The position numbers and the translations under genes are program-made. 32,000 nt of DNA from Cylindrospermopsis raciborskii Cr2010 (lineage in GTDB: Bacteria > Cyanobacteriota > Cyanobacteriia > Cyanobacteriales > Nostocaceae), in contig NZ_CP065936.1 of assembly GCF_003367075.2 (NCBI RefSeq), positions 2,280,001 through 2,312,000 on the forward strand, in the 5' to 3' direction. A model generated the notes under the pieces. It was given only the letters and a program-made list of their open reading frames with translations, did no database searches and had not been told where the DNA came from. Shown here one piece after another: positions 1 through 21,478 of this stretch (positions within the stretch are counted from its first letter, which is position 1; every line of letters starts with the position of its first letter).

Positions 1-536
1 CAGGTGTACTCATGGGCGCACCAAACCCGGGTGTTATCAGGTAAAGCTCTCAGTTGAGTCAAAGACTCCACCATTTGTGCTGGTGTACCTTCAAATAGAC
101 GACCACAACCACCAGCAAAAAGAGTGTCACCACAAAATAACTCTCCTGTGTCACCGGGTGTGACAGGGGGGAAATAATAGGCAATATGAGCACGAGTATG
201 ACCAGGTATAAATAATACTATTGCCTGGCGATCGCCAAATTTAACAATATCATTTGCTTGTAGGAACACCTGCTGTCCAGGAATTCTTCCTCGGTCTTGA
301 ATACCAGCATATATGGTCACCTGGGGAAATTTTTCAATTAATTTCTGATTACCTCCCACATGGTCATGATGATGATGGGTATTAAAAATAGCGACCAAAT
401 TGCATTGTAATTCTGTAAGTTTTTCCATAACCGGTTCTGGTTGAGCGGGATCGACAACAGCAGCAATATTATGATATGAATCGTATAGGAGAAATATATA
501 GTTATCAGACAGTGCTGATAATTGAATGATTTGCAT
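1..536 (-). CDS. gloB: Hydroxyacylglutathione hydrolase (glyoxalase II), 3' end truncated by window edge
   Basis: My own translation of the minus strand from the ATG (complement of 534-536) gives [17 protein letters not shown]...[12 protein letters not shown]...[11 protein letters not shown]...[17 protein letters not shown]...CAHEYT. It has the metallo-beta-lactamase HxHxDH motif and glyoxalase II blocks. It is absent from the ORF track because it runs off the window. Confidence 0.85.
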
Positions 537-570
537 TATTTTTACCTCATTTATATAAATAAAAATTATC

Positions 571-599
571 AAATCTCTCTACTTTAAGAAGAGAGATTT
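571..599 (-). terminator. Candidate stem-loop, possibly an intrinsic terminator for the upstream minus-strand gene
   Basis: Perfect 10-bp inverted repeat: aaatctctct (571-580) and agagagattt (590-599), with a 9-nt loop. On the minus strand it is followed by GATAATTTTTATTTAT. It lies only about 35 nt upstream of the gloB ATG, so it could instead be a 5' regulatory structure. Confidence 0.35.
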
Positions 600-619
600 A
601 ACAAAGATTCTTGAGTAAG

Positions 620-678
620 TGGGTGAGTGGAATTAAACATAAGATGAAGGTAGGTTGGGTTGAGGAACGAAACCCAAC
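620..678 (+). repeat. Short dispersed repeat, copy A, ending in a GTTGGGTT/AACCCAAC hairpin
   Basis: About 60 bp, tgggtgagtggaattaaacataagatgaaggtaggttgggttgaggaacgaaacccaac, matching 24019-24080 with a few substitutions and a 2-nt indel. The hairpin arms are 654-661 and 671-678. Confidence 0.8.
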
Positions 679-740
679 GCCCCCACGGGTTACCCTACCA
701 CTAAGCCATCCTACAAATAATTGTGCCTCCCTACTTACCT

Positions 741-1115
741 TCAAGACCAAGAATCTAAATCAAGAGATTGCATCCCACGATTACTAACAAACTCTAGTAA
801 ACTACCCAGTTGGAACCAGACAAACAAACAAGTTGCCAGACTCAATGGTAGACCTATACCCAAAGCGAGGGGGGAGGGAAAACCAAATATTTCCAATCCA
901 GAAGACATAAATAAACAAACGCCCCCTGTAATTCCTATAAATGGCAATAACAATTGTTTTAAAGAACCGGATGATTTAATGGGTTCTATCTGATTAGCTG
1001 GCCACTTCTGCACAATTACCTTTAAGGTACCAGACAAAGCAAAACCAGAAGTTAATGCGGCCAGAAAACCTACCAGTAGTAAAATATAAGGTGGTTGAAG
1101 AGGATAGTAATACAT
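741..1115 (-). CDS. Small hydrophobic membrane protein, function unknown
   Basis: The ORF track gives 741-1154 with a TTG start. I prefer the ATG at 1115 (MYYYPLQPP...) because AGGAG sits 5 nt upstream. The product has several hydrophobic helices and no recognisable motif. Confidence 0.55.
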   Translation of the reverse strand: MYYYPLQPPYILLLVGFLAALTSGFALSGTLKVIVQKWPANQIEPIKSSGSLKQLLLPFIGITGGVCLFMSSGLEIFGFPSPLALGIGLPLSLATCLFVWFQLGSLLEFVSNRGMQSLDLDSWS

Positions 1116-1163
1116 GAAAACTCCTGATTTTAAAAAACTAACCAACAAAAACAAAATAGGCTA

Positions 1164-2873
1164 TTATTCAGCTATAACAGAGGAAAGAAAAGAACCTGCT
1201 CTGGGTAAAATAGCTGCTACACTTTCCCGAGAGAACTCGGTCAACATATTGAGAGCTACGTTGAGTAAACGATTGGGGGGTAAATCATCTTTGACTAACT
1301 CCCATAATCTTTGTACCTCATCAGTATGCAAACGGTCGTCTTCAGTCAACGCTAAAACCAATTGACGACGCAAGAATTTACCCTCTTCAGAAAGTAAATA
1401 CTGTAAACCCATTTTCGCCGTGGGAACCATATCAAACTCCCCATCTGTACGAGCAATGGAAATCAAATTTTCCAACCTTTGCCATTGGAACTTACCATTT
1501 TTAAATAGCACGTTCAATAACCGTCTTCTTAACGCAGGTGATTCACCAGTGAGTAGACGACGTGCTATGTATGGATAGCCAACCTCCACAATTTTAAAAT
1601 TGCGGTTAAGACTCAACGCAATCCCTTCCTGGGTTACCAGGGAGCGAATAATCAAAGCAAATTTGGCAGGAACTCGGAAGGGGTAATCATACATTAATTC
1701 CGAAAATTCATCGGTGATAGTTTTAAAGTTAAAATCCCCAACATTCTTACCAATGGCATTCCCTAAAACCGCTTCTAACGCTGGAATAATAGGACTAATA
1801 TTTGTCCCGGGGGCTAAAAAACCCAAACTGACAAAATCTTCCGCTAGATCGGCGTAATCCTTATTCACAAGATGCACCAGCGCATCCACTAAAGTTTCCT
1901 TAGTAGTTTCCTCCAACTGATCCATCATGCCAAAGTCAATGTAAGCCATGCGACCATCATCCACCGCAAACAAATTACCCGGATGGGGATCCGCATGGAA
2001 AAAGCCATATTCTAATAGCTGTTGTAAACCAGAAGTAACCCCAATTTGAATCATACCTTCAGGATTTAAACCAGCTTGACGAATCCTTTCGGTATCCGTG
2101 AGTTTATAACCATTGATCCATTCCAGGGTTAAAACTCGATGACTACTATAACTCCAGTAAATAACTGGTACTTTTACCTGGGGGTTGTTGCGAAAATTGT
2201 GGGCGAATTTCTCTGCATTACGCCCTTCATTCATGTAGTCTATTTCTTCAAATAATTTGGTGCCAAATTCATCCACAATTAGTGTTAGGTCATGACCAAG
2301 ATTGAGAGGTAACCAGGGACTTAACCAAGTAGCTGCCCATCGCATTAAGTACAGGTCTTTTGTGATGATTGGTCTCAGGTTAGGGCGTTGTACTTTTACA
2401 GCGATTTCTTCACCTGTCACTAAAGTTCCCCTATATACCTGACCCAAACTAGCTGCTGCTACTGGTTGGGGTGATAGTTTGGTAAATATCTCATCAATGG
2501 ACCTATTGATCTCAGTTTCTATAATACTTAGGGCTATATCGTGGTCAAACGGTGGTAACTGGTCTTGCAGTTTTACCAGTTCCTCCAAAAAGTCCTTACG
2601 GATTAAGTCTGGTCGAGTGGATAGAGCTTGACCAACTTTGATGAATGTTGGACCTAGGTTGGTTAACAGTTTTCGCAACTGGGTGGCTCTTTTTCCCCTA
2701 TTTTGCTCAACCTGATTTCGCCATTCATCCCACTGAAGGCTGAATATAAAGACCGCAAAAGAAAATAGGATTCTCAACAGTCTTGCTAAAGCTAACCAGG
2801 GACGGTAACGATAATAACTTGCGATCGCTTCTGGATTGTACTGCTTTAATTGAGCAGGTTGGTAATGACCCAC
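1164..2873 (-). CDS. ABC1/UbiB (AarF) family atypical protein kinase
   Basis: 569 aa with a GTG start. It carries the ABC1 signature blocks LGPTFIKVGQALSTRPD, AAASLGQVY, EIAVKVQRP, HADPHPGNL and IDFGMM. Confidence 0.9.
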   Translation of the reverse strand: MGHYQPAQLKQYNPEAIASYYRYRPWLALARLLRILFSFAVFIFSLQWDEWRNQVEQNRGKRATQLRKLLTNLGPTFIKVGQALSTRPDLIRKDFLEELVKLQDQLPPFDHDIALSIIETEINRSIDEIFTKLSPQPVAAASLGQVYRGTLVTGEEIAVKVQRPNLRPIITKDLYLMRWAATWLSPWLPLNLGHDLTLIVDEFGTKLFEEIDYMNEGRNAEKFAHNFRNNPQVKVPVIYWSYSSHRVLTLEWINGYKLTDTERIRQAGLNPEGMIQIGVTSGLQQLLEYGFFHADPHPGNLFAVDDGRMAYIDFGMMDQLEETTKETLVDALVHLVNKDYADLAEDFVSLGFLAPGTNISPIIPALEAVLGNAIGKNVGDFNFKTITDEFSELMYDYPFRVPAKFALIIRSLVTQEGIALSLNRNFKIVEVGYPYIARRLLTGESPALRRRLLNVLFKNGKFQWQRLENLISIARTDGEFDMVPTAKMGLQYLLSEEGKFLRRQLVLALTEDDRLHTDEVQRLWELVKDDLPPNRLLNVALNMLTEFSRESVAAILPRAGSFLSSVIAE

Positions 2874-3153
2874 GTCTTTGCCTCTACAACTGGGAATTTG
2901 AGCTTTTATTTACTAACTGTTTACGTGGGTATATTGCCCCTTTTCATGGGATTTAGATATCCCATAAAATAATTGCCAATCACCCATTTCCAGGCAATAT
3001 TAGCCATCATAGGGCGGTTTTTATTACCTAGGTTAGTTTATCTTTTTGTTAATTATACTTTATAAAACTACAAACTTTGGTCTGATAGCAAGGGTATTTT
3101 ATCTTTTCTTAACTATTACCTGATTTTACCTTACGTGTAGACGTAGCCATCTG

Positions 3154-5454
3154 TTAAGAGCGATAAGCACCATAAACTAGCACAGGCACTCTTTTATATG
3201 CAGGTGTACCGCTATTTATATCAATTTCTGCTTTAAATAACAGATTTGCCTCTGGATAAAACATAAATGCCACGCCTTGACGAATTCTACCACAAATAAC
3301 TTCAATGCTATTTAGTTCCCCCGCATTACCTTTAACTGTGACCCGATCATTTTCTTTGAATCCTGCTGCGGCAATATCCTCAGCATTCATCAAAATACAA
3401 TGGCGATGGGGCATATTTCTATACTTATCTTCATCACGATATACCACGGTATTATGCTGACCATAACTGCGTCCAGTTCCCAGTATTAAAACAGTTCCCG
3501 GATGATTTTCTGGAACTCCAAAATAGGATTTATTTGGTAAAGATAATTGTGGTAGGGTTGTGACAAACATTTGTGCTTTACCATCGGGAGTATTAAATTT
3601 TGGTTCTGAAAAGACTCGCCCATCAATGGTAAATTCTTCTTGAGTTTGGTCAATCTGCCCAATTTTTTGATAACCGGGAATGGTTTTGGCGATAAGTTCT
3701 CTGATATAGATTGGATCTTGCAATTTACGCCAATTGATTGGACCTTCTTGATGGGAAATATGGGCAATTTCTGTAATTAACTCTACTTCTGAAATTAAAT
3801 CAGACTCCCGGGAAGATAGATGTGTTCTACCTGCATCATTTAATCGCACAAAATTGTTTCCCGATTCCGTAGTGGTCTGGTGGGGATTTTCAAATCTGTT
3901 AAAAACTGGTAAGATTAGGGTCTGAACCTTTGCCAATCCATGAAAATGTCCTAGATTGGGTTTTGTCCCCACATAAAATATAGTTTCTATTTCAGATAAT
4001 GCCTTTTTAGCCTGTTGTAAATCTGGATTAGCTGCATATAAATTGCCTCCCAAACAAAACAGGGTATCTACCCGACCTTTTTCTGCTGCTGTGATTAAAT
4101 CACGGGTATGATAGCCAGGGGTATTATTGAGGGGTTTTCCCAGCAATTGGGATAGTGCTTCCCTAACTTCTTCCCGCAAGTTTACAGTTACACCCATAGA
4201 GCCAAATCCTTGAACATTGGAATGGCCCCGAATGGGCATTGTTCCCGCTCCGATTTTACCAGCATTACCTGTCATCAAGGCAGTATTTGCAATGCTGAAT
4301 ATGTTCTCGACTGCGTTCTTATGTTGGGTTATACCCATTGCCCAGGCAAAAACTACGTTTTTTGATTTACCAATTAAATAAGCTGCTGCACTAATTTCTT
4401 CCTGAGATAATCCGCAGGTTTTAGTAATTTCTTCCCAAGATGTGTGTTGGGCATAATCTAGGATTTCTTGCCAATTTTTTGTGTGAGATTGTAGGTAGTT
4501 ATTTTGAATTAAATTTTGCTCAATTAGGGATTTTTGCAAACCAACAAATAGGGCAACATCACTACCAGGAATAGGCTGTAAATATAAAGTTGATATATCC
4601 GAACCACCAGTGAGTAGTAATTTGATGGGAAAAGCAGGAGAACCAAATTTGACCAAGCCAACTTCTATCTGGGGATTGATAATAATTATCTTACCTCCCC
4701 TGTCCCGTAATTTGATTAACTCGTTCATTAATCTTGGATGATTAGCAGGCGCATTAGATCCAACTAAAACTATGCAGTCACTGTGTTTTAAGCTCTCTAA
4801 ACTGACCATGGAAGTGCCAGAACCAAAAACTTGCTTTAACCCCACGGTTGAAGGAGCGTGACACAAATCTGAACAGTCAGCTAAATTATTACTCCCCAGC
4901 GATCGCATGAATAATTGCAACAGGTAAGCTGCTTCGTTAGAAGAACGCCCAGAGCTGTAACTGGCAATTCTCTGTGGTGTGATACTGAAAGATTTTCGAG
5001 CAATTTGATAAACCTCTGACCAGCTGATAGGTTGATAGTGGGATGCTCCAGATCTGAGAATAAGTGGATAGGTTAATCTACCCAATTTGTCGCATTGTTG
5101 GGAAGTAAGTTGTTGTAATTCGTTAATAGTGTACTGCTCAAAAAATTCTAGTTTGATTCCCGGTTGCAATTCAGCAGCGATCGCCTCTACACTTTTAGCA
5201 CAACGTTGTAAGTATTCTCCCGACTCATTAACAAATCCGCCTTTTTGTCCACCAGTTCCCCAGGCGCAGGATAAACAGGCACTTTTATGATTCAGGGTTT
5301 GCCATAATTTAGGTCCTTGGGGGGTGAGGGTTTTTTCTACCCAGTATTGAATTACAGGTATTCCTCCTCCGGAGGGAGATTTTGAATTTGCGGTTAAATC
5401 ATCCATAAAATCTAACTCAATTTCTTGACCTAAGTACCTTATAGTATAGGACAT
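3154..5454 (-). CDS. FdhF/YdeP-family molybdopterin oxidoreductase
   Basis: 766 aa. The N-terminal CxxC...GGQKGGF block (SACLSCAWGTGGQKGGFVNE) and the overall molybdopterin-oxidoreductase layout are typical of the YdeP subgroup. Confidence 0.8.
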   Translation of the reverse strand: MSYTIRYLGQEIELDFMDDLTANSKSPSGGGIPVIQYWVEKTLTPQGPKLWQTLNHKSACLSCAWGTGGQKGGFVNESGEYLQRCAKSVEAIAAELQPGIKLEFFEQYTINELQQLTSQQCDKLGRLTYPLILRSGASHYQPISWSEVYQIARKSFSITPQRIASYSSGRSSNEAAYLLQLFMRSLGSNNLADCSDLCHAPSTVGLKQVFGSGTSMVSLESLKHSDCIVLVGSNAPANHPRLMNELIKLRDRGGKIIIINPQIEVGLVKFGSPAFPIKLLLTGGSDISTLYLQPIPGSDVALFVGLQKSLIEQNLIQNNYLQSHTKNWQEILDYAQHTSWEEITKTCGLSQEEISAAAYLIGKSKNVVFAWAMGITQHKNAVENIFSIANTALMTGNAGKIGAGTMPIRGHSNVQGFGSMGVTVNLREEVREALSQLLGKPLNNTPGYHTRDLITAAEKGRVDTLFCLGGNLYAANPDLQQAKKALSEIETIFYVGTKPNLGHFHGLAKVQTLILPVFNRFENPHQTTTESGNNFVRLNDAGRTHLSSRESDLISEVELITEIAHISHQEGPINWRKLQDPIYIRELIAKTIPGYQKIGQIDQTQEEFTIDGRVFSEPKFNTPDGKAQMFVTTLPQLSLPNKSYFGVPENHPGTVLILGTGRSYGQHNTVVYRDEDKYRNMPHRHCILMNAEDIAAAGFKENDRVTVKGNAGELNSIEVICGRIRQGVAFMFYPEANLLFKAEIDINSGTPAYKRVPVLVYGAYRS

Positions 5455-5516
5455 TAAGTTGAATTCCGTTGACTAACAAGTAACTGCAAAAGAAGATTGT
5501 AGATAATATTAGGATT

Positions 5517-6443
5517 ATGGCGAAATTCTCGCGCTGGGTTGTTTTTGGAGTGACTTTGCTTTTTTTAGCCAAAACTCTCCAAGACCATTGGTTGGAAGTG
5601 AACTCTCTGAGTCTAGTTACAATTAAGTGGAAAACTTTGATTCTAGCCACCATAGTGACATTACTTGCACACACTTGGGCGGGGTGGGTATGGACATGGA
5701 TTCTGAAAGATTTAAATCAGTCTGTACCTACTGGTCTATTTATCCGAGTGTATTTAAAAACTAATGTCGCTAAATATTTGCCTGGAAATGTTTGGCATTA
5801 TTATGGAAGAATACTAACAGCTAAAAATACCAATATTCCCACACTGGTAGCCACCTTGAGTGTCCTGTTAGAACCCCTACTCATGGCTACAGCAGCTTTA
5901 TTTAATATTATTTTACTCCCTAATCAATTATTTCTTACCTTTAGGTACATTCCTCAAATTCTACAATTCATCAGTTTGTGTCTACTGCTAAGTGCCATGC
6001 ACCCAGCAGTCCTAAATCCTGGGCTGGATATACTATATCAGATAAAAAGCAAAGTTAAGTTCCCTGGAAAAACCTCCCCTACAGTAAATTCCCCGATTCA
6101 GCCCATTAATAATTTAATTCTTGACCACTATCCCCTATTACCTCTGGTGGGTGAACTCATATTTGTATACTTACGGGGAACAGGGTTTATTTTAACTATT
6201 TCTGCTGTTAGTAATGTGGATATCAACCAAATCCCCATATTAATGGGTGCTTTTAGTCTGGCCTGGGTTTTGGGTCTAGTCATCCCCGGTGCTCCAGGTG
6301 GTATAGGTGTATTTGAAGCCACTGCTATTCTGGTTCTAGACGATGTTTTCCCACCTGCTATCCTAATTAGCGCGATCGCACTGTATCGTCTTATCAGCAT
6401 TTTAGCGGAAACTATTGGTGCTGCTATTGGCTACTTACTCTAG
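5517..6443 (+). CDS. UPF0104 / lysylphosphatidylglycerol-synthase-TM-like (flippase-like) integral membrane protein
   Basis: 308 aa polytopic membrane protein with a C-terminal IPGAPGGIGVFEA motif characteristic of this family. Confidence 0.6.
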   Translation: MAKFSRWVVFGVTLLFLAKTLQDHWLEVNSLSLVTIKWKTLILATIVTLLAHTWAGWVWTWILKDLNQSVPTGLFIRVYLKTNVAKYLPGNVWHYYGRILTAKNTNIPTLVATLSVLLEPLLMATAALFNIILLPNQLFLTFRYIPQILQFISLCLLLSAMHPAVLNPGLDILYQIKSKVKFPGKTSPTVNSPIQPINNLILDHYPLLPLVGELIFVYLRGTGFILTISAVSNVDINQIPILMGAFSLAWVLGLVIPGAPGGIGVFEATAILVLDDVFPPAILISAIALYRLISILAETIGAAIGYLL

Positions 6444-6502
6444 TTTTTTGCTAAATTTGCCCATCTGGTGGTACTATGGTGCTGTTGCTAAATTCCTAAA
6501 TC

Positions 6503-14322: not shown

Positions 14323-14344
14323 TCTCAATATATTCTCAATATAT
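14323..14344 (+). promoter_or_regulatory. Tandem 11-bp direct repeat (tctcaatatat x2), candidate operator upstream of the RHH-like ORF
   Basis: Exact repeat at 14323-14333 and 14334-14344. A third CTCAATA core lies at 14355-14361 inside an imperfect palindrome (14356-14383). The repeats sit about 135-155 nt upstream of the ATG at 14480. Confidence 0.3.
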
Positions 14345-14479
14345 AAGGTGAAAACTCAATAAGGAATATAATACCTTTATTGATAGGCTAAGAAGTTTGT
14401 CATTAGAGAAGCAAACTAGTTAAAATAATTGGGAAGTGGGGAGTTTCAATTTAATCCCAAAACTAACAAGGATAAAAAT

Positions 14480-15016
14480 ATGGCTAGACCTGGTGGAAAC
14501 CCTGAACTCAAAAAATATCAATTTTCTAGTGAAGGGGAACCTAATAATGCTCAACTTCGCTTGTGGGTTACTAAATCTCTTTTGACTAGGCTTAACAATA
14601 CCTTCGGAGCGAATAGAAATAAGTGGATTAGAGAAACTCTAACCAAAGCATTAGATGAAATTGATGAAAATCATATGAAACATGATATGAAGAACTTTGA
14701 GGAAGAAACAAAGATGCCACTATTAACTAATATCGAGTTAAAAGGAATAGAAACTGGTAAGGAAATTGGTAAGGAAATTGGCAAGGAAATTGGCACATTA
14801 GAAAAAGCTCATGATTATGTGAAACTGGTGTTGAAAACCCGATTGGGTGACATACCAGAGACAATTGCCAAAGGGGTGGACACAATATCAGTATTACCAA
14901 TTTTGGATGAGCTACTAAAGTTGGCAATCAAAGTTGATTGTTTTGAAGATTTTCACCAATCCTTATTAAAATTATCTCCCAAAAAGTTTGAGTCAAATGA
15001 GTCGGATAAGAGCTAA
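14480..15016 (+). CDS. Chimeric protein: ribbon-helix-helix-like N-terminus fused to the C-terminal (DUF4351-like) module of the downstream Rpn-like genes
   Basis: The ORF track start at 14429 is TTG. I use the ATG at 14480, which has AAGGA 7 nt upstream. Residues ~20-60 (AQLRLWVTKSLLTRLNNTFGANRNKWIRETLTKALDE) fit a beta-strand/helix/helix RHH pattern. From KNFEEETKMPLL onward the sequence is the repeat-unit C-terminal module, nearly identical at nucleotide level to 15690-16001. Confidence 0.7.
   Translation: MARPGGNPELKKYQFSSEGEPNNAQLRLWVTKSLLTRLNNTFGANRNKWIRETLTKALDEIDENHMKHDMKNFEEETKMPLLTNIELKGIETGKEIGKEIGKEIGTLEKAHDYVKLVLKTRLGDIPETIAKGVDTISVLPILDELLKLAIKVDCFEDFHQSLLKLSPKKFESNESDKS
14756..14791 (+). 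repeat. 12-bp in-frame tandem repeat GG(T/C)AAGGAAATT x3, encoding (GKEI)3
   Basis: Counted directly. The third-position pattern of the Gly codon is T-T-C. Confidence 0.95.
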
Positions 15017-16001
15017 TTATGACGAACCATGGAAAGAAGCACTAACGGAGTATTTTGAACAATTTCTGCTTTTCTTCTTTCCGGGAATTCACCAATTAAT
15101 TGATTGGGGAAAAACACCAGAGTCTCTAGATAAAGAACTGCAAAGAATTACAGCCTTATCAAAAACGAAAAGGCGCTTTGCAGATAAATTGTATAAAGTC
15201 TGGTTAGTTAGTGGGGAAGAAATCTGGGTGTTGATTCACATTGAAATTCAAAGTCAATATGAGGAAGAATTCCAAAAGAGGATGTATATTTATAATTACC
15301 GTGCTTTTGACCTATATCAAAAACCGGTGATTAGTCTAGCAATTTTGGGAGATGAAAAAGCTGATTGGAAACCAGAAAGTTATAATTATAGCTTAGGAGG
15401 GTGTGAGGTAAGTCTGAAATTTCCCGTGGTGAAACTACTCAGCTATGAGGAAAAATGGTCAGAACTGGAAGAAAGTAATAATCCTTTTGCTATAGTGGTA
15501 ATGGCACATCTAAAAACAAAAGCAACTAAGGGAAAACCAGAGGAGAGAGAAAAATGGAAATGGATTTTAATCCGAGGACTATATAACGGGGGGTTAGATA
15601 GAAACCAGATAGTTCGATTGCTGGGAATCATTGATACAATGATGAAGCTACCTAAAAAATCACAGGAAAGTTTGGAGAATAAGATAAAGAACTTTGAAGA
15701 GGAAACAAAGATGCCACTGTTAACTAATATCGAGTTAAAAGGAATAGAAACTGGTAAGGAAATTGGCAAGGAAATTGGCACATTAGAAAAAGCTCATGAT
15801 TATGTGAAACTGGTGTTGAAAACCCGATTGGGTGACATACCAGAGACAATTGCCAAAGGGGTGGACACAATATCAGTATTACCAATTTTGGATGAGCTAC
15901 TAAAGTTGGCAATCAAAGTTGATTGTTTTGAAGATTTTCACCAATCCTTATTAAAATTATCTCCCAAAAAGTTTGAGTCAAATGAGTCGGATAAGAGCTA
16001 A
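14997..16001 (+). CDS. Rpn/YhgA-like PD-(D/E)XK nuclease family protein (putative transposase family) with DUF4351-like C-terminal domain, copy 1
   Basis: The ORF track start at 14988 is TTG. The ATG at 14997 gives MSRIRANYDEPWKEALTEYFEQFLLFFFP... The core FADKLYKVW...WVLIHIEIQSQ...RMYIYNY matches the D...ExQ nuclease core of the YhgA/Rpn (Transposase_31-like) family. The C-terminal (GKEI)n plus LVLKTRLGDIPE...L..LLKLAI..D.FEDF resembles DUF4351. The ATG lies 20 nt inside the upstream ORF. Confidence 0.75.
   Translation: MSRIRANYDEPWKEALTEYFEQFLLFFFPGIHQLIDWGKTPESLDKELQRITALSKTKRRFADKLYKVWLVSGEEIWVLIHIEIQSQYEEEFQKRMYIYNYRAFDLYQKPVISLAILGDEKADWKPESYNYSLGGCEVSLKFPVVKLLSYEEKWSELEESNNPFAIVVMAHLKTKATKGKPEEREKWKWILIRGLYNGGLDRNQIVRLLGIIDTMMKLPKKSQESLENKIKNFEEETKMPLLTNIELKGIETGKEIGKEIGTLEKAHDYVKLVLKTRLGDIPETIAKGVDTISVLPILDELLKLAIKVDCFEDFHQSLLKLSPKKFESNESDKS
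15753..15776 (+). repeat. 12-bp in-frame tandem repeat x2, encoding (GKEI)2
   Basis: Counted directly. The pattern is T-C. Confidence 0.95.
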
Positions 16002-17046
16002 TTATGACGAACCATGGAAAGAAGCACTAACGGAGTATTTTGAACAATTTCTGCTTTTCTTCTTTCCGGGAATTCACCAATTAATTGATTGGGGAAAAAC
16101 ACCAGAGTCTCTAGATAAAGAACTGCAAAGAATTACAGCCTTATCAAAAACGAAAAGGCGCTTTGCAGATAAATTGTATAAAGTCTGGTTAGTTAGTGGG
16201 GAAGAAATCTGGGTGTTGATTCACATTGAAATTCAAAGTCAATATGAGGAAGAATTCCAAAAGAGGATGTATATTTATAATTACCGTGCTTTTGACCTAT
16301 ATCAAAAACCGGTGATTAGTCTAGCAATTTTGGGAGATGAAAAAGCTGATTGGAAACCAGAAAGTTATAATTATAGCTTAGGAGGGTGTGAGGTAAGTCT
16401 GAAATTTCCCGTGGTGAAACTACTCAGCTATGAGGAAAAATGGTCAGAACTGGAAGAAAGTAATAATCCTTTTGCTATAGTGGTAATGGCACATCTAAAA
16501 ACAAAAGCAACTAAGGGAAAACCAGAGGAGAGAGAAAAATGGAAATGGATTTTAATCCGAGGACTATATAACGGGGGGTTAGATAGAAACCAGATAGTTC
16601 GATTGCTGGGAATCATTGATACAATGATGAAGCTACCTAAAAAATCACAGGAAAGTTTGGAGAATAAGATAAAGAACTTTGAAGAGGAAACAAAGATGCC
16701 ACTGTTAACTAATATCGAGTTAAAAGGAATAGAAACTGGTAAGGAAATTGGTAAGGAAATTGGTAAGGAAATTGGCAAGGAAATTGGTAAGGAAATTGGC
16801 AAGGAAATTGGCAAGGAAATTGGCACATTAGAAAAAGCTCATGATTATGTGAAACTGGTGTTGAAAACCCGATTGGGTGACATACCAGAGACAATTGCCA
16901 AAGGGGTGGACACAATATCAGTATTACCAATTTTGGATGAGCTACTAAAGTTGGCAATCAAAGTTGATTGTTTTGAAGATTTTCACCAATCCTTATTAAA
17001 ATTATCTCCCAAAAAGTTTGAGTCAAATGAGTCGGATAAGAGCTAA
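15982..17046 (+). CDS. Rpn/YhgA-like PD-(D/E)XK nuclease family protein, copy 2
   Basis: Protein identical to copy 1 except that it has 7 rather than 2 GKEI units. It shows the same 20-nt start/stop overlap with copy 1. Confidence 0.75.
   Translation: MSRIRANYDEPWKEALTEYFEQFLLFFFPGIHQLIDWGKTPESLDKELQRITALSKTKRRFADKLYKVWLVSGEEIWVLIHIEIQSQYEEEFQKRMYIYNYRAFDLYQKPVISLAILGDEKADWKPESYNYSLGGCEVSLKFPVVKLLSYEEKWSELEESNNPFAIVVMAHLKTKATKGKPEEREKWKWILIRGLYNGGLDRNQIVRLLGIIDTMMKLPKKSQESLENKIKNFEEETKMPLLTNIELKGIETGKEIGKEIGKEIGKEIGKEIGKEIGKEIGTLEKAHDYVKLVLKTRLGDIPETIAKGVDTISVLPILDELLKLAIKVDCFEDFHQSLLKLSPKKFESNESDKS
16738..16821 (+). repeat. 12-bp in-frame tandem repeat x7, encoding (GKEI)7
   Basis: Counted directly. 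The pattern is T-T-T-C-T-C-C. Confidence 0.95.
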
Positions 17047-18055
17047 TTATGACGAACCATGGAAAGAAGCACTAACGGAGTATTTTGAACAATTTCTGCT
17101 TTTCTTCTTTCCGGGAATTCACCAATTAATTGATTGGGGAAAAACACCAGAGTCTCTAGATAAAGAACTGCAAAGAATTACAGCCTTATCAAAAACGAAA
17201 AGGCGCTTTGCAGATAAATTGTATAAAGTCTGGTTAGTTAGTGGGGAAGAAATCTGGGTGTTGATTCACATTGAAATTCAAAGTCAATATGAGGAAGAAT
17301 TCCAAAAGAGGATGTATATTTATAATTACCGTGCTTTTGACCTATATCAAAAACCGGTGATTAGTCTAGCAATTTTGGGAGATGAAAAAGCTGATTGGAA
17401 ACCAGAAAGTTATAATTATAGCTTAGGAGGGTGTGAGGTAAGTCTGAAATTTCCCGTGGTGAAACTACTCAGCTATGAGGAAAAATGGTCAGAACTGGAA
17501 GAAAGTAATAATCCTTTTGCTATAGTGATAATGGCACATCTAAAAACAAAAGCAACTAGGGGGAAACCAGGGGAGAGAGAAAAATGGAAATGGATTTTAA
17601 TCCGAGGACTATATAACGGGGGGTTAGATAAAAACCAGATAGTTAGATTGCTGGGAATCATTGATACAATGATGACGCTACCTAAAAAATCACAGGAAAG
17701 TTTGGAGAATAAGATAAAGAGCTTTGAGGAGGAAACAAAAATGCCACTATTAACTAATATCGAGTTAAAAGGAATAGAAACTGGTAAGGAAATTGGTAAG
17801 GAAATTGGCAAGGAAATTGGCAAGGAAATTGGCACATTAGAAAAAGCTCATGATTATGTGAAACTGGTGTTGAAAACCCGATTAGGTGACATACCAGAGA
17901 CAATTGCCAAAGAGGTAGACACAATATCAGTATTACCAATTTTGGATGAGCTACTAAAGTTGGCAATCAAAGTTGATTGTTTTGAAGATTTTCACCAATC
18001 CTTATTAAAATTATCTCCCAAAAAGTTTGAGTCAAATAAGTCGGATAAAAGCTAA
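17027..18055 (+). CDS. Rpn/YhgA-like PD-(D/E)XK nuclease family protein, copy 3 (diverged C-terminal half)
   Basis: The first ~500 nt are identical to copies 1 and 2. From 17528 onward there are 8 amino-acid substitutions (V->I, K->R, E->G, R->K, K->T, N->S, G->E, E->K) and 4 GKEI units. Confidence 0.75.
   Translation: MSRIRANYDEPWKEALTEYFEQFLLFFFPGIHQLIDWGKTPESLDKELQRITALSKTKRRFADKLYKVWLVSGEEIWVLIHIEIQSQYEEEFQKRMYIYNYRAFDLYQKPVISLAILGDEKADWKPESYNYSLGGCEVSLKFPVVKLLSYEEKWSELEESNNPFAIVIMAHLKTKATRGKPGEREKWKWILIRGLYNGGLDKNQIVRLLGIIDTMMTLPKKSQESLENKIKSFEEETKMPLLTNIELKGIETGKEIGKEIGKEIGKEIGTLEKAHDYVKLVLKTRLGDIPETIAKEVDTISVLPILDELLKLAIKVDCFEDFHQSLLKLSPKKFESNKSDKS
17783..17830 (+). repeat. 12-bp in-frame tandem repeat x4, encoding (GKEI)4
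   Basis: Counted directly. The pattern is T-T-C-C. Confidence 0.95.
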
Positions 18056-18095
18056 TTATAATAAGCCATGGAAAGAAGCACTAACCCAATATTAG
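18036..18095 (+). pseudogene. Decayed 5' stub of a fourth Rpn-like copy
   Basis: The position equivalent to the start codon reads ATA instead of ATG. The next 19 codons (ISRIKANYNKPWKEALTQY) parallel MSRIRANYDEPWKEALTEY, then a TAG follows at 18093-18095 and homology is lost. Confidence 0.8.
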
Positions 18096-19730: not shown

Positions 19731-20321
19731 ATGAATCAGTTAGCGATACCCTGTCTACTATTTCGCAGTGGAACATCCCGTGGACCATTTTTTTTGTCTG
19801 GAGATCTACCTGATGACCATACCACCCGGGACAAAATAATTTTGGCAACTATGGGTTCACCAGATGAAAGACAAATAGATGGTATAGGGGGTGCAACAAC
19901 ATTAACTAGTAAGGTTGTGATTTTCTCTCCATCTCATCACGATTGGGCAGATATAGATTTTCTTTTTGGACAGGTTAGCATTAATCAGAATTTGATTGAC
20001 TGGAGCCCATCCTGTGGTAACATGACCGCCGCAGTTGCTCATGCTGCTATTAAAAGAGGTTTGGTCTCAGCGTTAGATCCCATAACCAAGGTGAAAATTC
20101 GCAACTTAAACACCAATTCATTAGTTGAAACTGTAGTACAAACTCCCCAATCTGAAATTATGTATGATGGTAACACGTCTATTGACGGAGTACCAGGAGC
20201 AGCAGCACCAGTTGTGATGAATTTTATGGAGGTTGTGGGATCTAAAACCGGTCAGTTGTTACCAACGGGCCATTGTCGGGAAGAAATCGAGGGAATTGAG
20301 GTTACCTGTCAGGAATATTAG
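19731..20321 (+). pseudogene. PrpF / 4-oxalomesaconate tautomerase family gene, truncated to about the N-terminal half
   Basis: 196 aa. IPCLLFRSGTSRGPFFL...MGSPDERQIDGIGGATTLTSKVVI...SPSCGNM match PrpF-family N-terminal blocks. Family members as I recall them are roughly twice this length. The ORF ends at a TAG at 20319-20321, exactly where permease homology begins. Confidence 0.7.
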
Positions 20322-21478
20322 GAGCTTGTAATAGTGTTAATCTAGCTCAACTGGCTGTTAGCCATCCGGTTAGTGGTGGTATTTATGAATATGGTTATAA
20401 ATACTTAACTCCTTGGTTAGGTTTTACAGGAGGTTGGATCTATCTTCTAAGTAAAACTGCTGTAGCCGCCACAGCGGCTTTGGGATTTTCTGGTTATCTT
20501 TTAAACAATATTGGTCTTGCTGATGCAGGTATTTTAATCCCCGTAGCGGAAATAGCTGTAGTTATTATTACGTTGATTGTGTTTGGTGGTATGCGCAGTT
20601 CCCAGATATCAACGATTGTAGTGGTCTTAATCACTATGGCTTCTTTACTGGGTTTAATTACTGCAGGTCTATTCTTCTGCTTTTCCCATGGTTGGGGAAA
20701 ATTAACATTTTCGGGAATAAACTCTTATCAGGGAGCAACTAGTTTCTTGCAATCGGTAGCTCTGATGTTTGTTTCTTATAATGGTGCTGCTCGGATTTCT
20801 ATGGTCAGCGAAGAAATTGTTGACCCTAAAAAAAGTATACCAAGGGCAATTATTTTCACCGTGGTGACAACAATGGTTCTGTACATTGGTGTTTCACTGG
20901 TTAGTTTAGGTTCCATTGGGGCAGAATCATTTGCTGCTGCGACAAGAACAAACGCTGCTCCATTAAAGGCTGTAGCTGATAGTTTTGGTATTCCTTTAGT
21001 CTCTAACCTATTGGCTTTAGGTGCAATTACTTCCATGTTAAGTATATTGCTAACAACTGTTTTAGGCGTTTCTCGATTACTTTTAGCCATGGGAAGAAGG
21101 GGAGATATGCCTAAATTGTTTGCCAAACTGAACACTGCAGGAACAACACCAGAATTTGCCGTTATCTTTGTGGGTATTGCAATTGCGGTTTTAGTATTAA
21201 TTGGTGATGTAAGGGTAACATGGTCTTTTGGCACTTTTGGTGCACTATACCGCAGTTTTATTACCAGTTTGTCAGCATTACAAATTGGGGATCAAGAAAG
21301 ATTATATCCAAAGTGGATATCTTGGTTTTCTTTGTGCAGTTCAGTAGTGTTAGCCTTCTGTATTGAATGGTATTATTGGACAATTGGTTTAGGATTAGTC
21401 ATTGTGGGATTAATCTGGCGTTTTATATTCCGTCAGCTTTATACCTCGGAGAATATTCAGTTAATAACCAAGGACTAA
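20300..21478 (+). pseudogene. APC-superfamily amino acid permease lacking its 5' end and start codon
   Basis: The reading frame is open from 20300 and the ORF track calls only 20480 (TTG). My upstream translation, ...ACNSVNLAQLAVSHPVSGGIYEYGYKYLTPWLGFTGGWIYLL, is the conserved (A)ELA..P.SGG.Y.Y block that normally follows about 50 or more N-terminal residues including TM1. There is no ATG or GTG in frame before 20480. Confidence 0.7.

What the first reader, a model, noticed from the sequence alone, without database searches (positions are those of the whole stretch)
14480..18095. Chain of four overlapping ORFs: RHH-like/C-terminal-module chimera followed by three Rpn-like nucleases, a candidate amplified toxin-antitoxin-style locus
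**Seen in sequence:**
- The first ORF (14480-15016) joins a unique N-terminus with a ribbon-helix-helix-like pattern (LRLWVTKSLLTRL...WIRETLTKALDE) to the same C-terminal module carried by each downstream Rpn/YhgA-like nuclease gene.
- Its last 20 nt contain the ATG of nuclease copy 1, and the same overlap links copies 1-2 and 2-3.
- All four ORFs therefore form one overlapping, probably translationally coupled chain, in frames 2, 0, 1, 2.
- In every copy an in-frame ATG preceded by GAGGAA with a 6-nt spacer sits at the start of the C-terminal module (14714, 15711, 16696, 17741).
- Left-end homology of the orphan module begins only about 25 nt upstream of that SD/ATG. The duplicated block thus corresponds to a potentially self-contained small ORF of 96-116 aa.

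**Established knowledge:** RHH DNA-binding domain plus toxin-binding tail is the classic type II antitoxin architecture. Published work on E. coli Rpn proteins reports that short proteins translated from internal starts (the C-terminal domain alone) neutralise the full-length toxic nuclease, and that these loci act in phage defence with variable C-termini.

**Inference:** This locus may be an Rpn-type toxin/intragenic-antitoxin system that has been tandemly amplified. It may have acquired a dedicated RHH-fused antitoxin/autoregulator as the first gene. I am not aware of that arrangement having been described.
Basis: partly seen in the sequence, partly recalled or inferred. Interest (0 to 1): 0.85.

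Follow-up and report, generated by a model that had tools for sequence, protein, structure and literature searches.

The report
Rpn-like nuclease array with plasmid-gene chimera
A cyanobacterial chromosome carries a strain-variable tandem array of Rpn-like nuclease genes with the sequence hallmarks of the known "toxin with an antitoxin inside it" phage-defence genes, and the odd first gene is a junction product in which a plasmid-derived DNA-binding gene became fused to a spare copy of the antitoxin part.

Summary
ORF1 (14480-15016) and three near-identical 334-354 aa genes overlap by 20 nt. Each carries an in-frame internal ATG and a variable (GKEI)n repeat.

- **The genes.** They are divergent Rpn/YhgA-like PD-(D/E)XK proteins. 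Pfam and NCBIfam scores are below the curated cut-offs. All five residues shown to be essential in E. coli RpnA are invariant here. The invariant internal Met, the Glu codons upstream of it and the tetrapeptide repeat starting 11-15 residues after it match the published Rpn hallmarks.
- **Already known.** Tandem rpn arrays, repeat-number variation and separate antitoxin-domain genes were described by Zhong et al. 2023.
- **ORF1.** A 331-bp fragment, 90% identical to a Cylindrospermopsis plasmid, supplies an RHH-family gene lacking only about 8 codons. It is joined in frame to an orphan C-module. RHH relatives elsewhere are stand-alone plasmid genes and are never next to Rpn genes. The chimera's repeat number (3) matches no full-length copy here (2, 7, 4).
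- **Persistence.** The same junction occurs in four sources, and array size ranges from 3 to at least 8 copies.

The Rpn reading is supported. The "dedicated RHH antitoxin" reading is possible, but a recombination by-product fits better. Moderate interest.

The parts
14358..14688 (+). Fragment of plasmid origin. It holds the last ~65 nt of a Rad52-family gene, the intergenic region, and the first 69-70 codons of a small RHH-family gene.
   Evidence: It is 90% identical to C. curvispora plasmid NZ_CP060823.1 138038-138363. The same module occurs in metagenome contigs L003 and L005. Homology stops exactly where repeat-unit homology begins.
14397..14426 (+). Best sigma-70-like promoter match upstream of ORF1 (TTGTCA-18-TAAAAT, 10/12). 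It lies inside the plasmid-derived fragment.
   Evidence: The site is conserved in L003 and partly in L005 and L017. It is a consensus match only, and function is inferred.
14480..15016 (+). ORF1, a 178-aa chimera. Residues 1-~69 are an RHH-family small protein. A short junction is followed by an orphan Rpn C-terminal module (14689-15016), with an internal ATG at 14714 and (GKEI)3 within the TRF array at 14750-14793.
   Evidence: The chimera is intact in CP073250 (n=7) and G7 (n=8), and open as far as contig L034 reaches (n=1).
14997..16001 (+). Rpn-like copy 1 (334 aa). It has an N-terminal PD-(D/E)XK domain (D9, D63, E83, Q85, R95), an internal ATG at 15711 and (GKEI)2 within the TRF array at 15747-15780.
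   Evidence: The protein is identical to a G7 array member.
15982..17046 (+). Rpn-like copy 2 (354 aa), with an internal ATG at 16696 and (GKEI)7 within the TRF array at 16732-16823. It is identical to copy 1 outside the repeat.
17027..18055 (+). Rpn-like copy 3 (342 aa), with an internal ATG at 17741 and (GKEI)4 within the TRF array at 17777-17834. It differs from copies 1 and 2 at 16 nt.
18056..18084 (+). Degenerate beginning of a further repeat unit, marking the right boundary of the array. The RBS and ATG (18105) of the flanking vWA gene follow directly.
   Evidence: The right junction is identical in three strains.

Best explanation
**What the locus is**
- The locus is a tandemly amplified array of divergent Rpn-like (YhgA/COG5464-type) PD-(D/E)XK nuclease genes in Cylindrospermopsis raciborskii.
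- By analogy with E. coli Rpn, each gene would encode a long toxic nuclease (RpnL-like). A short C-terminal protein (RpnS-like, 96-116 aa) would be translated from the conserved in-frame Met, dimerise with the same domain of the long form, and hold it inactive until phage infection.

**How it varies**
- The 12-nt (GKEI)n repeat lies in the helix just after that Met and changes by slippage. Copies that are otherwise identical therefore differ in repeat number and presumably in long/short pairing specificity.
- Unequal recombination between ~1-kb units changes copy number between strains (3 here, at least 8 elsewhere).
- The 20-nt gene overlaps follow from the geometry of the duplication. The unit is 20 nt shorter than the gene, so each ORF reads into the start of the next unit. 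This also creates the lineage-specific tail PKKFESNESDKS.

**What ORF1 is**
- ORF1 is the left junction of the array. Illegitimate recombination at a GATA microhomology joined a 331-bp piece of a Cylindrospermopsis plasmid to a unit truncated just upstream of its internal Met.
- The plasmid piece holds the Rad52-gene end, the intergenic region and an RHH gene lacking its last ~8 codons.
- ORF1 most likely yields, at most, an orphan RpnS-like module, either fused to RHH or free from ATG 14714. It is not a dedicated regulator.

**Shown versus inferred**
- Shown: sequence anatomy, homologies, strain variation, and the plasmid origin of the RHH fragment.
- Inferred: translation from the internal ATG, toxicity, neutralisation and a phage-defence role.
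For: **Anatomy**
- Anatomy and repeats.

**Rpn relationship**
- TIGR01784 is the top NCBIfam hit in 35 of 38 homologues (best E-value 1.8e-6). PF04754 hits 18 of 38.
- RefSeq names homologues of 42-65% identity 'Rpn family recombination-promoting nuclease', 'RpnC/YadD family' or 'DUF4351 domain-containing'.
- The residues essential in RpnA are D11, D63, E82, Q84 and R94 (PMC5350276). Their invariant counterparts here are D9, D63, E83, Q85 and R95. hhalign puts the core motifs in register.

**Antitoxin hallmarks**
- The internal Met is invariant in 38/38 and 22/22 homologues and is preceded by near-invariant Glu codons. This parallels E241/M244 of E. coli Rpn.
- The repeat has one hydrophobic residue plus charged residues or Gly and starts 11-15 residues after the Met. 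Published RpnS repeats start 8-20 residues after it, and the RpnC repeat is KGIE.
- 14 of 22 C-module homologues give weak DUF4351 hits.

**Variation between strains**
- The chimera carries n = 3, 7, 8 or 1. Arrays read 2,7,4 versus 6,2,9,3,1,7,5,4.
- Arrays made by tandem duplication and separate rpnSs genes are published.

**ORF1 as a junction product**
- Homology to the plasmid is limited to 14358-14688.
- RHH homologues are stand-alone proteins of 60-96 aa in Rad52/ERF/methylase/ParA/ArdA contexts.
- No other RHH-C-module fusion was found in 5.8 billion proteins.
Against: - The window proteins score below the curated cut-offs: PF04754 15 bits against 21, and TIGR01784 21 bits against 52.
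- Profile-profile comparison with E. coli Rpn is not significant, either for the full length (E-value 0.12) or for the C-terminal domain (E-value 0.04).
- The window C-module has no DUF4351 hit of its own, and no structural match to RpnAS could be tested.
- No synonymous-site constraint was seen around the internal ATG in a comparison of the two array types.
- PADLOC gives no hit and the neighbours are housekeeping genes, not a defence island.
- Against 'mere by-product': the chimeric ORF is intact in every source seen. The RHH core shows dN/dS of 0.04-0.12 against the plasmid-type homologues, although that mostly predates the fusion. Between the window and L034, which share the junction, the RHH part differs at only 2 positions, both nonsynonymous.
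Confidence: 0.6

Rival explanations
1. ORF1 is a functional type II-like antitoxin and autoregulator. The RHH domain binds an operator at the promoter that came with it. The fused RpnS module binds the nucleases. This puts the whole overlapping chain under one autoregulated, translationally coupled operon.
For: - The full RHH core is retained and only the unconserved tail is replaced.
- The fusion is in frame and intact in four independent sources.
- A promoter-like site came in with the fragment.
- ORF1 overlaps copy 1 exactly as the copies overlap each other.
- The architecture resembles RHH antitoxins.
- In CP073250 the chimera's n = 7 equals that of one full-length copy.
Against: - The fusion is confined to one species lineage.
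- RHH homologues are never linked to Rpn genes.
- The repeat number is 3 here against 2, 7, 4, and 8 in G7 against 6, 2, 9, 3, 1. In E. coli RpnC a mismatch of one repeat abolishes neutralisation.
- An in-frame join has a 1-in-3 chance probability.
- The only two post-fusion substitutions in the RHH part are nonsynonymous.
- The RHH fold was not confirmed by modelling.
- No exact match to the 178-aa product is on record as a called gene in the collection.
Confidence: 0.2
2. The array is a neutral or decaying by-product of recombination-prone repeats, or of a selfish 'putative transposase'-type element. It has no current cellular function. The internal Met and the repeat are features of the protein only.
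For: - Several units are frameshifted in CP073250, and five units in the second array type carry an 82-nt deletion.
- Copy number is highly unstable.
- Repeat numbers recur within the L002 array, so there is no rule that copies must differ.
- There is no defence-island context.
Against: - All three copies here and at least six in G7 are intact, with invariant catalytic residues.
- The family is under clear purifying selection across genera: 55-68% identity with about 90 invariant columns.
- Zhong et al. found no transposon ends for rpn genes. The left and right ends of the array here are unrelated sequences.
- The CP073250 frameshifts lie in an A5 run and are absent from the same units in G7, so they may be sequencing errors.
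Confidence: 0.15
3. The repeat acts as a molecular ruler for the nuclease, setting target spacing as the TAEL repeats do in EcoR124I/II. It would not set antitoxin specificity, and there would be no separately translated short protein.
For: - The repeat lengthens a predicted helix in 4-residue steps.
- Zhong et al. themselves cite the EcoR124 precedent.
- There is no direct evidence for internal initiation in cyanobacteria, and no synonymous constraint.
Against: - The Met is invariant, sits 11-15 residues before the repeat and is preceded by Glu codons.
- N-terminally truncated or stand-alone C-module genes persist in Microcystis and Cylindrospermopsis.
- RpnA is reported to have little sequence specificity.
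Confidence: 0.05

Closest known systems
E. coli RpnA-E and plasmid RpnP2 toxin/intragenic-antitoxin phage-defence systems (Zhong et al. 2023, PMC10400941; Kingston et al. 2017, PMC5350276)
   Same: - Similar size (~300-350 aa).
- An N-terminal PD-(D/E)XK core with the same five essential residues in the same order and spacing.
- An invariant in-frame Met about 50-100 codons before the stop, preceded by Glu codons that form an SD-like motif.
- A tetrapeptide repeat of G/K/E/I composition (RpnC: KGIE; here: GKEI) shortly after that Met, whose number varies between strains.
- Arrays formed by tandem direct duplication.
   Different: - Sequence similarity is remote, below the Pfam and TIGRFAM cut-offs (hhalign E-value 0.12).
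- The short form would be about twice as long (96-116 aa against ~50-60 aa).
- Copies overlap by 20 nt and are otherwise identical.
- Nothing has been tested experimentally in cyanobacteria.
Separate rpnSs genes (E. coli ypaA/rpnESs and rpnCSs; proteins annotated DUF4351)
   Same: - An extra copy of only the C-terminal (antitoxin) module is encoded next to a full-length rpn gene and is derived from it by duplication.
   Different: - Here the extra module lies upstream, not downstream.
- It is fused in frame to a foreign RHH gene.
- Its repeat number differs from that of the adjacent full-length copies.
Type II toxin-antitoxin antitoxins with an N-terminal RHH domain (CopG/Arc/MetJ type, e.g. 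ParD, CcdA, RelB, FitA)
   Same: - ORF1 has an N-terminal RHH-family module followed by a segment expected to bind the neighbouring toxin.
- It is the first gene and overlaps the toxin gene.
   Different: - The RHH part derives from a plasmid gene that is not part of a toxin-antitoxin pair anywhere else.
- The 'toxin-binding' part is a copy of the toxin's own C-terminus.
- Neither DNA binding nor neutralisation has been tested.
- The architecture is not conserved beyond one lineage.
Small RHH-family proteins of cyanobacterial plasmids (the Rad52 - RHH - cytosine methyltransferase - ERF module, e.g. WP_187707557.1 on p-r.curvispora1)
   Same: - ORF1 residues 1-69 and 122 nt upstream of the ATG are 90% identical to this gene and its 5' flank.
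   Different: - The plasmid gene is stand-alone (77-90 aa) with its own short tail.
- In the window only this 331-bp piece of the plasmid module is present.

Membership tests
Rpn / YhgA-like recombination-promoting nuclease (PF04754, TIGR01784, COG5464) | Score above the curated cut-off of the family profile | tested here: not met
   PF04754 scores 15.1 bits against a cut-off of 21. TIGR01784 scores 21 bits against 52.1. Rpn is still the only consistent hit across homologues: 35/38 for TIGR01784 (best E-value 1.8e-6) and 18/38 for PF04754. RefSeq names homologues of 42-65% identity as Rpn family. I therefore file it as a divergent Rpn-like clade, not as a member by the curated thresholds.
Rpn / YhgA-like recombination-promoting nuclease (PF04754, TIGR01784, COG5464) | PD-(D/E)XK core with the residues shown to be essential in RpnA (D11, D63, E82, Q84, R94) | tested here: met
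   D9, D63, E83, Q85 and R95 are invariant in 38 homologues. The order and spacing match E. coli. hhalign aligns the ExQ and R motifs in register and the D63 motif one position out. The mutational data come from PMC5350276.
Rpn toxin / intragenic antitoxin system (RpnL/RpnS) | In-frame internal start codon with an RBS-like motif at the start of the C-terminal domain | tested here: met
   The sequence feature is present. The Met is invariant (38/38 and 22/22) and near-invariant Glu codons precede it, giving GAGGA 6-9 nt upstream. Actual initiation cannot be tested with these tools, and no synonymous constraint was detected.
Rpn toxin / intragenic antitoxin system (RpnL/RpnS) | Four-residue repeat (one hydrophobic residue plus charged residues or Gly) starting 8-20 residues after the internal Met, with number varying among strains | tested here: met
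   (GKEI)n starts at residue 15 (KGIE at residue 10-11) after the Met. n ranges from 1 to 9 across copies and strains.
Rpn toxin / intragenic antitoxin system (RpnL/RpnS) | C-terminal domain is DUF4351 / an RpnAS-like three-helix dimer | tested here: inconclusive
   14 of 22 C-module homologues hit PF14261 weakly (best E-value 8.7e-4), but the window sequence does not. hhalign against E. coli RpnS gives E-value 0.04. The PDB sequence search gave no relevant hit. No confident model of the domain was obtained.
Rpn toxin / intragenic antitoxin system (RpnL/RpnS) | The long form is a toxic nuclease, the short form neutralises it, and the pair protects against phage | not testable with these tools
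   This needs expression, toxicity and plaque assays.
Ribbon-helix-helix (CopG/Arc/MetJ, PF01402) | Profile match | tested here: inconclusive
   ORF1 residues 1-78 give no Pfam hit. At family level RHH_1 is by far the commonest hit: 24 of 100 members, best E-value 3.7e-6. P0220 scores 21.5 bits against a cut-off of 20.5 over the whole profile. Precomputed PF01402 hits exist for P0226, P0229 and P0233. hhalign against CopG gives E-value 0.013 with the strand and helix A in register.
Ribbon-helix-helix (CopG/Arc/MetJ, PF01402) | Strand-helix-helix fold | tested here: inconclusive
   AlphaFold2 with 100 homologues gave mean pLDDT 78. It modelled an extended segment followed by one continuous helix (32-69), as a monomer. 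Foldseek against the PDB found nothing below E-value 5. Family indels at residues 43-47 suggest a loop there.
Type II toxin-antitoxin operon with an RHH antitoxin | The antitoxin is cognate to the adjacent toxin; here, the same repeat number as a full-length copy | tested here: not met
   Window: chimera n=3 against 2, 7, 4. G7: n=8 against 6, 2, 9, 3, 1. Only CP073250 shows a coincidence (7 and 7). The repeat-matching rule itself has been shown only for E. coli RpnC.
Type II toxin-antitoxin operon with an RHH antitoxin | The gene pair or architecture is conserved in other taxa | tested here: not met
   More than 500 RHH-family homologues are 60-155 aa and stand-alone. None of the contexts examined holds an Rpn gene. 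No other fusion appears among the C-module hits.

The most novel reading that the evidence does not exclude
The RHH-RpnS chimera is a working protein. It would be a DNA-binding antitoxin or regulator created by capture of a plasmid RHH gene and its promoter. That would convert a gene-within-gene Rpn system into a classical autoregulated, translationally coupled toxin-antitoxin-type operon heading a variable array of orthogonal nuclease/antitoxin pairs.
Probability: 0.2. Interest if true: 0.65.

Novelty: new member of a known kind. Interest (0 to 1): 0.4.

Why it matters
- If the inference holds, the Rpn "antitoxin inside the toxin" logic extends to bloom-forming cyanobacteria. That includes the invariant internal start and the tetrapeptide repeat taken to set long/short pairing specificity. 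All experimental work so far is in E. coli, with one C. difficile gene expressed in E. coli.
- The locus is close to a natural experiment. Copies 1 and 2 are identical apart from repeat number (2 and 7), and copy 3 (n=4) differs from them at only 16 nt. Strains differ in copy number (3 to at least 8) and in repeat numbers. This directly addresses the question raised in the PNAS commentary of whether repeat variation keeps multiple copies orthogonal.
- The chimera shows how array boundaries can create new fusion genes from plasmid DNA. If it is functional, it would be a first RHH-linked RpnS. If it is not, it is a warning that an in-frame, RHH-plus-tail architecture can arise as a junction accident.

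Tried and rejected
- **AlphaFold2 of ORF1 without an alignment.** Mean pLDDT was 46, so the model is uninformative.
- **One alignment covering both halves of ORF1 for modelling.** MAFFT twice misaligned the RHH family onto the C-module, so I dropped it. The last structure job went to the RHH part only.
- **PDB sequence searches.** Searches with the RHH, C-module and full-length profiles gave only spurious hits, such as alphaRep repeat proteins and ribosomal protein eL27.
- **hhalign of the cyanobacterial family against E. coli.** The comparisons with RpnA/B/C/E and with RpnS were in register but not significant.
- **Phage origin of the RHH gene.** ERF and Rad52 neighbours suggested it, but there are no relatives in IMG/VR and an exact context match lies on a Cylindrospermopsis plasmid. 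I now call it plasmid-derived.
- **'Copies in one array must all differ in repeat number'.** The 8 distinct values in CP073250 suggested this. The second array type reads 8,2,9,2,8,6,2,9,6,5, so I rejected it.
- **Synonymous-site constraint around the internal ATG.** None was detected.
- **Conserved inverted-repeat operator at the ORF1 promoter-like site.** The arms are not conserved in L005 and L017.
- **Junction search in metagenomes.** One of the two hits (L033) was a chance match.
- **Other tools.** PADLOC gave no hit. The afdb50 fold library was unavailable.
- **Source of the window.** I first assumed strain G7. G7 has a different array, so the window comes from another strain.

Full report
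**Observation**

The four ORFs are present as described.
- ORF1 is 14480-15016 (178 aa from the ATG). This is the start shared by all homologues of its N-terminal part.
- The three larger genes are 14997-16001, 15982-17046 and 17027-18055.
- Each gene's first 20 nt are the last 20 nt of the preceding ORF, and the frames are 2, 0, 1, 2.
- In-frame ATGs at 14714, 15711, 16696 and 17741 open ORFs of 100, 96, 116 and 104 aa.
- The only length differences between units come from a 12-nt repeat encoding (GKEI)n, with n = 3 in ORF1 and 2, 7, 4 in the copies.
- With the repeat removed, copies 1 and 2 are identical and copy 3 differs at 16 of 984 nt.
- Unit homology begins at ~14688-14690 and ends at ~18084 with a decayed start of a further unit.
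- One detail needs correcting. GAGGAA sits 6 nt before the ATG in the three copies but 9 nt before it in ORF1. The motif is the Glu-Glu-Glu codons.

**Organism and reality of the array**

Copy 1 is 100% identical to a protein of Cylindrospermopsis raciborskii G7. The window is nevertheless a different strain.

| Source | Chimera n | Copies in order |
|---|---|---|
| Window | 3 | 2, 7, 4 |
| G7 (CP195152) | 8 | 6, 2, 9, 3, 1, ... |
| CP073250 | 7 | 6, 2, 9, 3, 1, 7, 5, 4 (three frameshifted) |
| Metagenome contig L034 | 1 | contig ends in the array |

- Two of the CP073250 frameshifts lie in an A5 run. The units with n = 3 and n = 1 that are frameshifted there are intact in G7.
- L034 carries the same junction.
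- Draft assemblies break inside the array.
- A second array type, 81% identical in protein, has at least 10 units in another strain.
- The array is therefore real, old within the lineage, and highly unstable in copy number and repeat number.

**What the genes are**

- Pfam PF04754 (15 bits, cut-off 21) and NCBIfam TIGR01784 (21 bits, cut-off 52) are hit only below threshold.
- Across 38 homologues of 55-68% identity, Rpn is the only recurrent family: 35/38 for TIGR01784 (best E-value 1.8e-6) and 18/38 for PF04754.
- RefSeq and UniRef name homologues 'Rpn family recombination-promoting nuclease/putative transposase', 'RpnC/YadD family', 'YhgA-like' or 'DUF4351 domain-containing'.
- A profile-profile comparison with E. 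coli RpnA/B/C/E is not significant (E-value 0.12), yet it places the core motifs in register.
- Mutations at D11, D63, E82 and Q84 (Q84K) abolished all RpnA phenotypes, and R94A abolished its recombination activity (PMC5350276). The invariant counterparts here are D9, D63, E83, Q85 and R95.
- I conclude that this is a divergent Rpn-like PD-(D/E)XK clade. It is a relative by motif and by consistent weak profile signal, not a member by the curated thresholds.

**The C-terminal module**

Zhong et al. 2023 (PMC10400941) established several points for E. coli Rpn.
- A short protein, RpnS, is translated from an internal start and neutralises the long nuclease.
- Its first helix carries a four-residue repeat of one hydrophobic residue plus charged residues or Gly.
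- The repeat begins 8-20 residues after the initiating Met, and its number varies among strains.
- In RpnC (repeat KGIE), the short form must have the same repeat number as the long form to neutralise it.
- rpn arrays arise by tandem direct duplication.
- RpnS can also be encoded by a separate gene (DUF4351; ypaA).

The same hallmarks appear at this locus.
- The Met is invariant in 38/38 full-length homologues and 22/22 C-module homologues, with near-invariant Glu codons before it. This parallels the invariant E241 and M244 of E. coli Rpn.
- The sequence reads MPLLTNIELKGIETGKEIGKEI..., so the repeat starts 11-15 residues after the Met and has the same G/K/E/I composition.
- Repeat number varies from 1 to 9 among copies and strains.

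Direct evidence for DUF4351 or RpnS homology is weak.
- 14 of 22 homologues hit PF14261 (best E-value 8.7e-4), but the window sequence does not.
- hhalign against E. coli RpnS gives E-value 0.04.
- I saw no synonymous-site constraint near the internal ATG.
- The commentary PMC10400984 already proposes that repeat variation keeps multiple rpn copies orthogonal.

**ORF1**

Its first ~69 residues belong to a family of more than 500 small (60-96 aa), almost exclusively stand-alone cyanobacterial proteins with the N-terminal motif MxRPGGNPxLKKxQF.

The RHH assignment holds at family level only.
- RHH_1 is by far the commonest Pfam hit: 24 of 100 members, best E-value 3.7e-6.
- One member exceeds the cut-off over the full profile.
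- Three others have PF01402 hits on record, and a source names one of them an Arc/MetJ-type RHH regulator.
- The window sequence has no hit.
- AlphaFold2 with 100 homologues (pLDDT 78) modelled the monomer as an extended segment plus one long helix, and Foldseek found nothing significant.
- I treat the fold as likely but unconfirmed.

At the DNA level the origin is clear.
- Window 14358-14688 is 90% identical to plasmid p-r.curvispora1 of C. curvispora. The match runs from the last ~65 nt of a Rad52-family gene, through the intergenic region, to codon ~69 of a 77-aa hypothetical gene. On the plasmid that gene is followed by a cytosine methyltransferase and an ERF recombinase.
- The same module occurs in metagenome contigs with ParA-McdB or ArdA genes nearby. 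In Raphidiopsis brookii D9 the homologue is stand-alone beside RAMP-like genes.
- None of these contexts contains an Rpn gene. IMG/VR holds no relatives.
- Homology to the plasmid gene ends at ...CATGATAT, exactly where homology to the repeat unit (...AAGATAAAGAAC...) begins. GATA is a possible microhomology.
- Only the last ~8 unconserved codons of the RHH gene are lost.
- No other protein combining the two modules was found.

**Is the chimera functional?**

For:
- It is intact in every source seen.
- The complete RHH core is kept.
- The best promoter-like site of the region (14397-14426, 10/12) came in with the fragment.
- dN/dS of the RHH core against the plasmid-type genes is 0.04-0.12.

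Against:
- That constraint mostly predates the fusion. Between the window and L034, which share the junction, the RHH part differs at only two positions, both nonsynonymous.
- An in-frame join has a one-in-three chance probability.
- The fusion is confined to one lineage.
- The chimera's repeat number (3 here, 8 in G7) matches none of the full-length copies in those strains. Only in CP073250 does 7 coincide with a copy.
- Under the only tested rule (E. coli RpnC), it would therefore be a non-cognate, orphan module.

I rate the by-product reading as more likely and keep the functional reading at about 0.2.

**Mechanism proposed**

- Shown: the anatomy, the homologies, the strain variation and the plasmid origin of the fragment.
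- Inferred: each unit makes a long nuclease and, from the internal Met, a short C-terminal protein that pairs with it through the repeat-bearing helix.
- Inferred: slippage of the 12-nt repeat resets pairing specificity, and unequal crossing-over changes unit number.
- Inferred from sequence geometry: the 20-nt overlaps, and the lineage-specific tail PKKFESNESDKS absent from Microcystis homologues, arise because the unit is 20 nt shorter than the gene. Translational coupling is possible but need not have been selected.
- Neighbours are housekeeping genes: cytochrome bd subunit II, a membrane protein, a vWA protein and PrpF. PADLOC has no model that hits.

**Novelty and score**

- Already published: Rpn toxin/intragenic antitoxin systems, tandem arrays, tetrapeptide-repeat variation and separate RpnS genes.
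- New here: a remote cyanobacterial clade showing all these hallmarks.
- New here: an unusually clean array whose copies differ essentially only in repeat number.
- New here: a plasmid-RHH/RpnS junction gene.
- I class the locus as a new member of a known kind, with moderate interest (0.4). The RHH-antitoxin reading is the most novel case not excluded (probability about 0.2).

Noticed in passing
window 14323-14344: An 11-nt tandem duplication, TCTCAATATAT x2, lies just left of the plasmid-derived fragment. It is single-copy in metagenome contig L034.
   Followed up: partly
window ~20310 (between ORFs 19731-20321 and 20480-21478): The window has a 684-bp deletion relative to strain GCA_002893265.1 (L032 3247-3930). 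It removes the 3' half of the PrpF gene and the 5' end of the amino-acid permease gene. Identity to L032 drops from 99.7% to 97.4% across this point, which suggests a recombination boundary.
   Followed up: partly
L002 (GCA_051062915.1, JBPFSD010000001.1 477496-490218): This is a second Rpn-like array type (81% protein identity) with at least 10 units and repeat numbers 8,2,9,2,8,6,2,9,6,5. Five units carry the same 82-nt internal deletion but keep an intact C-module ORF.
   Followed up: partly
L036 (C. raciborskii G7, CP195152.1) 1-1161: In G7 an IS4-type DDE transposase gene and a shortened (199 aa) upstream gene precede the chimera. In the window the upstream membrane-protein gene is intact at 361 aa.
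   Followed up: no
L017 (Raphidiopsis brookii D9, ACYB01000023.1) 467-6500: The stand-alone RHH homologue lies beside a cluster of large minus-strand genes that look like RAMP/type III CRISPR-Cas proteins from their sequences. I did not run profiles on them.
   Followed up: no
alignments A3 and A5 (ORF1 residues 20-65 against C-module residues 1-50): MAFFT twice aligned the RHH family onto the first half of the Rpn C-module (EPNNAQLRLWV...NKWIRETLTKALDEI against MPLLTNIELKG...AHDYVKLVLKTRLGDI). This is probably a superficial pattern similarity between amphipathic helices. It was not tested.
   Followed up: no
window 15443-15781, 16428-16826, 17473-17835 (minus strand): Antisense ORFs of 112-132 aa begin with (PISL)n. 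They are the reverse-complement reading of the GKEI repeat and recur in every unit. I take them as a by-product of the repeat, not as genes.
   Followed up: no
proteins P0127, P0152, P0156 and related (Microcystis genomes): There are many ~150-aa Microcystis proteins annotated DUF4351. They are N-terminally truncated versions of the same family, start at an internal Met (MAHLKTKAT...) and also vary in the tetrapeptide repeat. They may be stand-alone antitoxin-type genes or remnants.
   Followed up: partly
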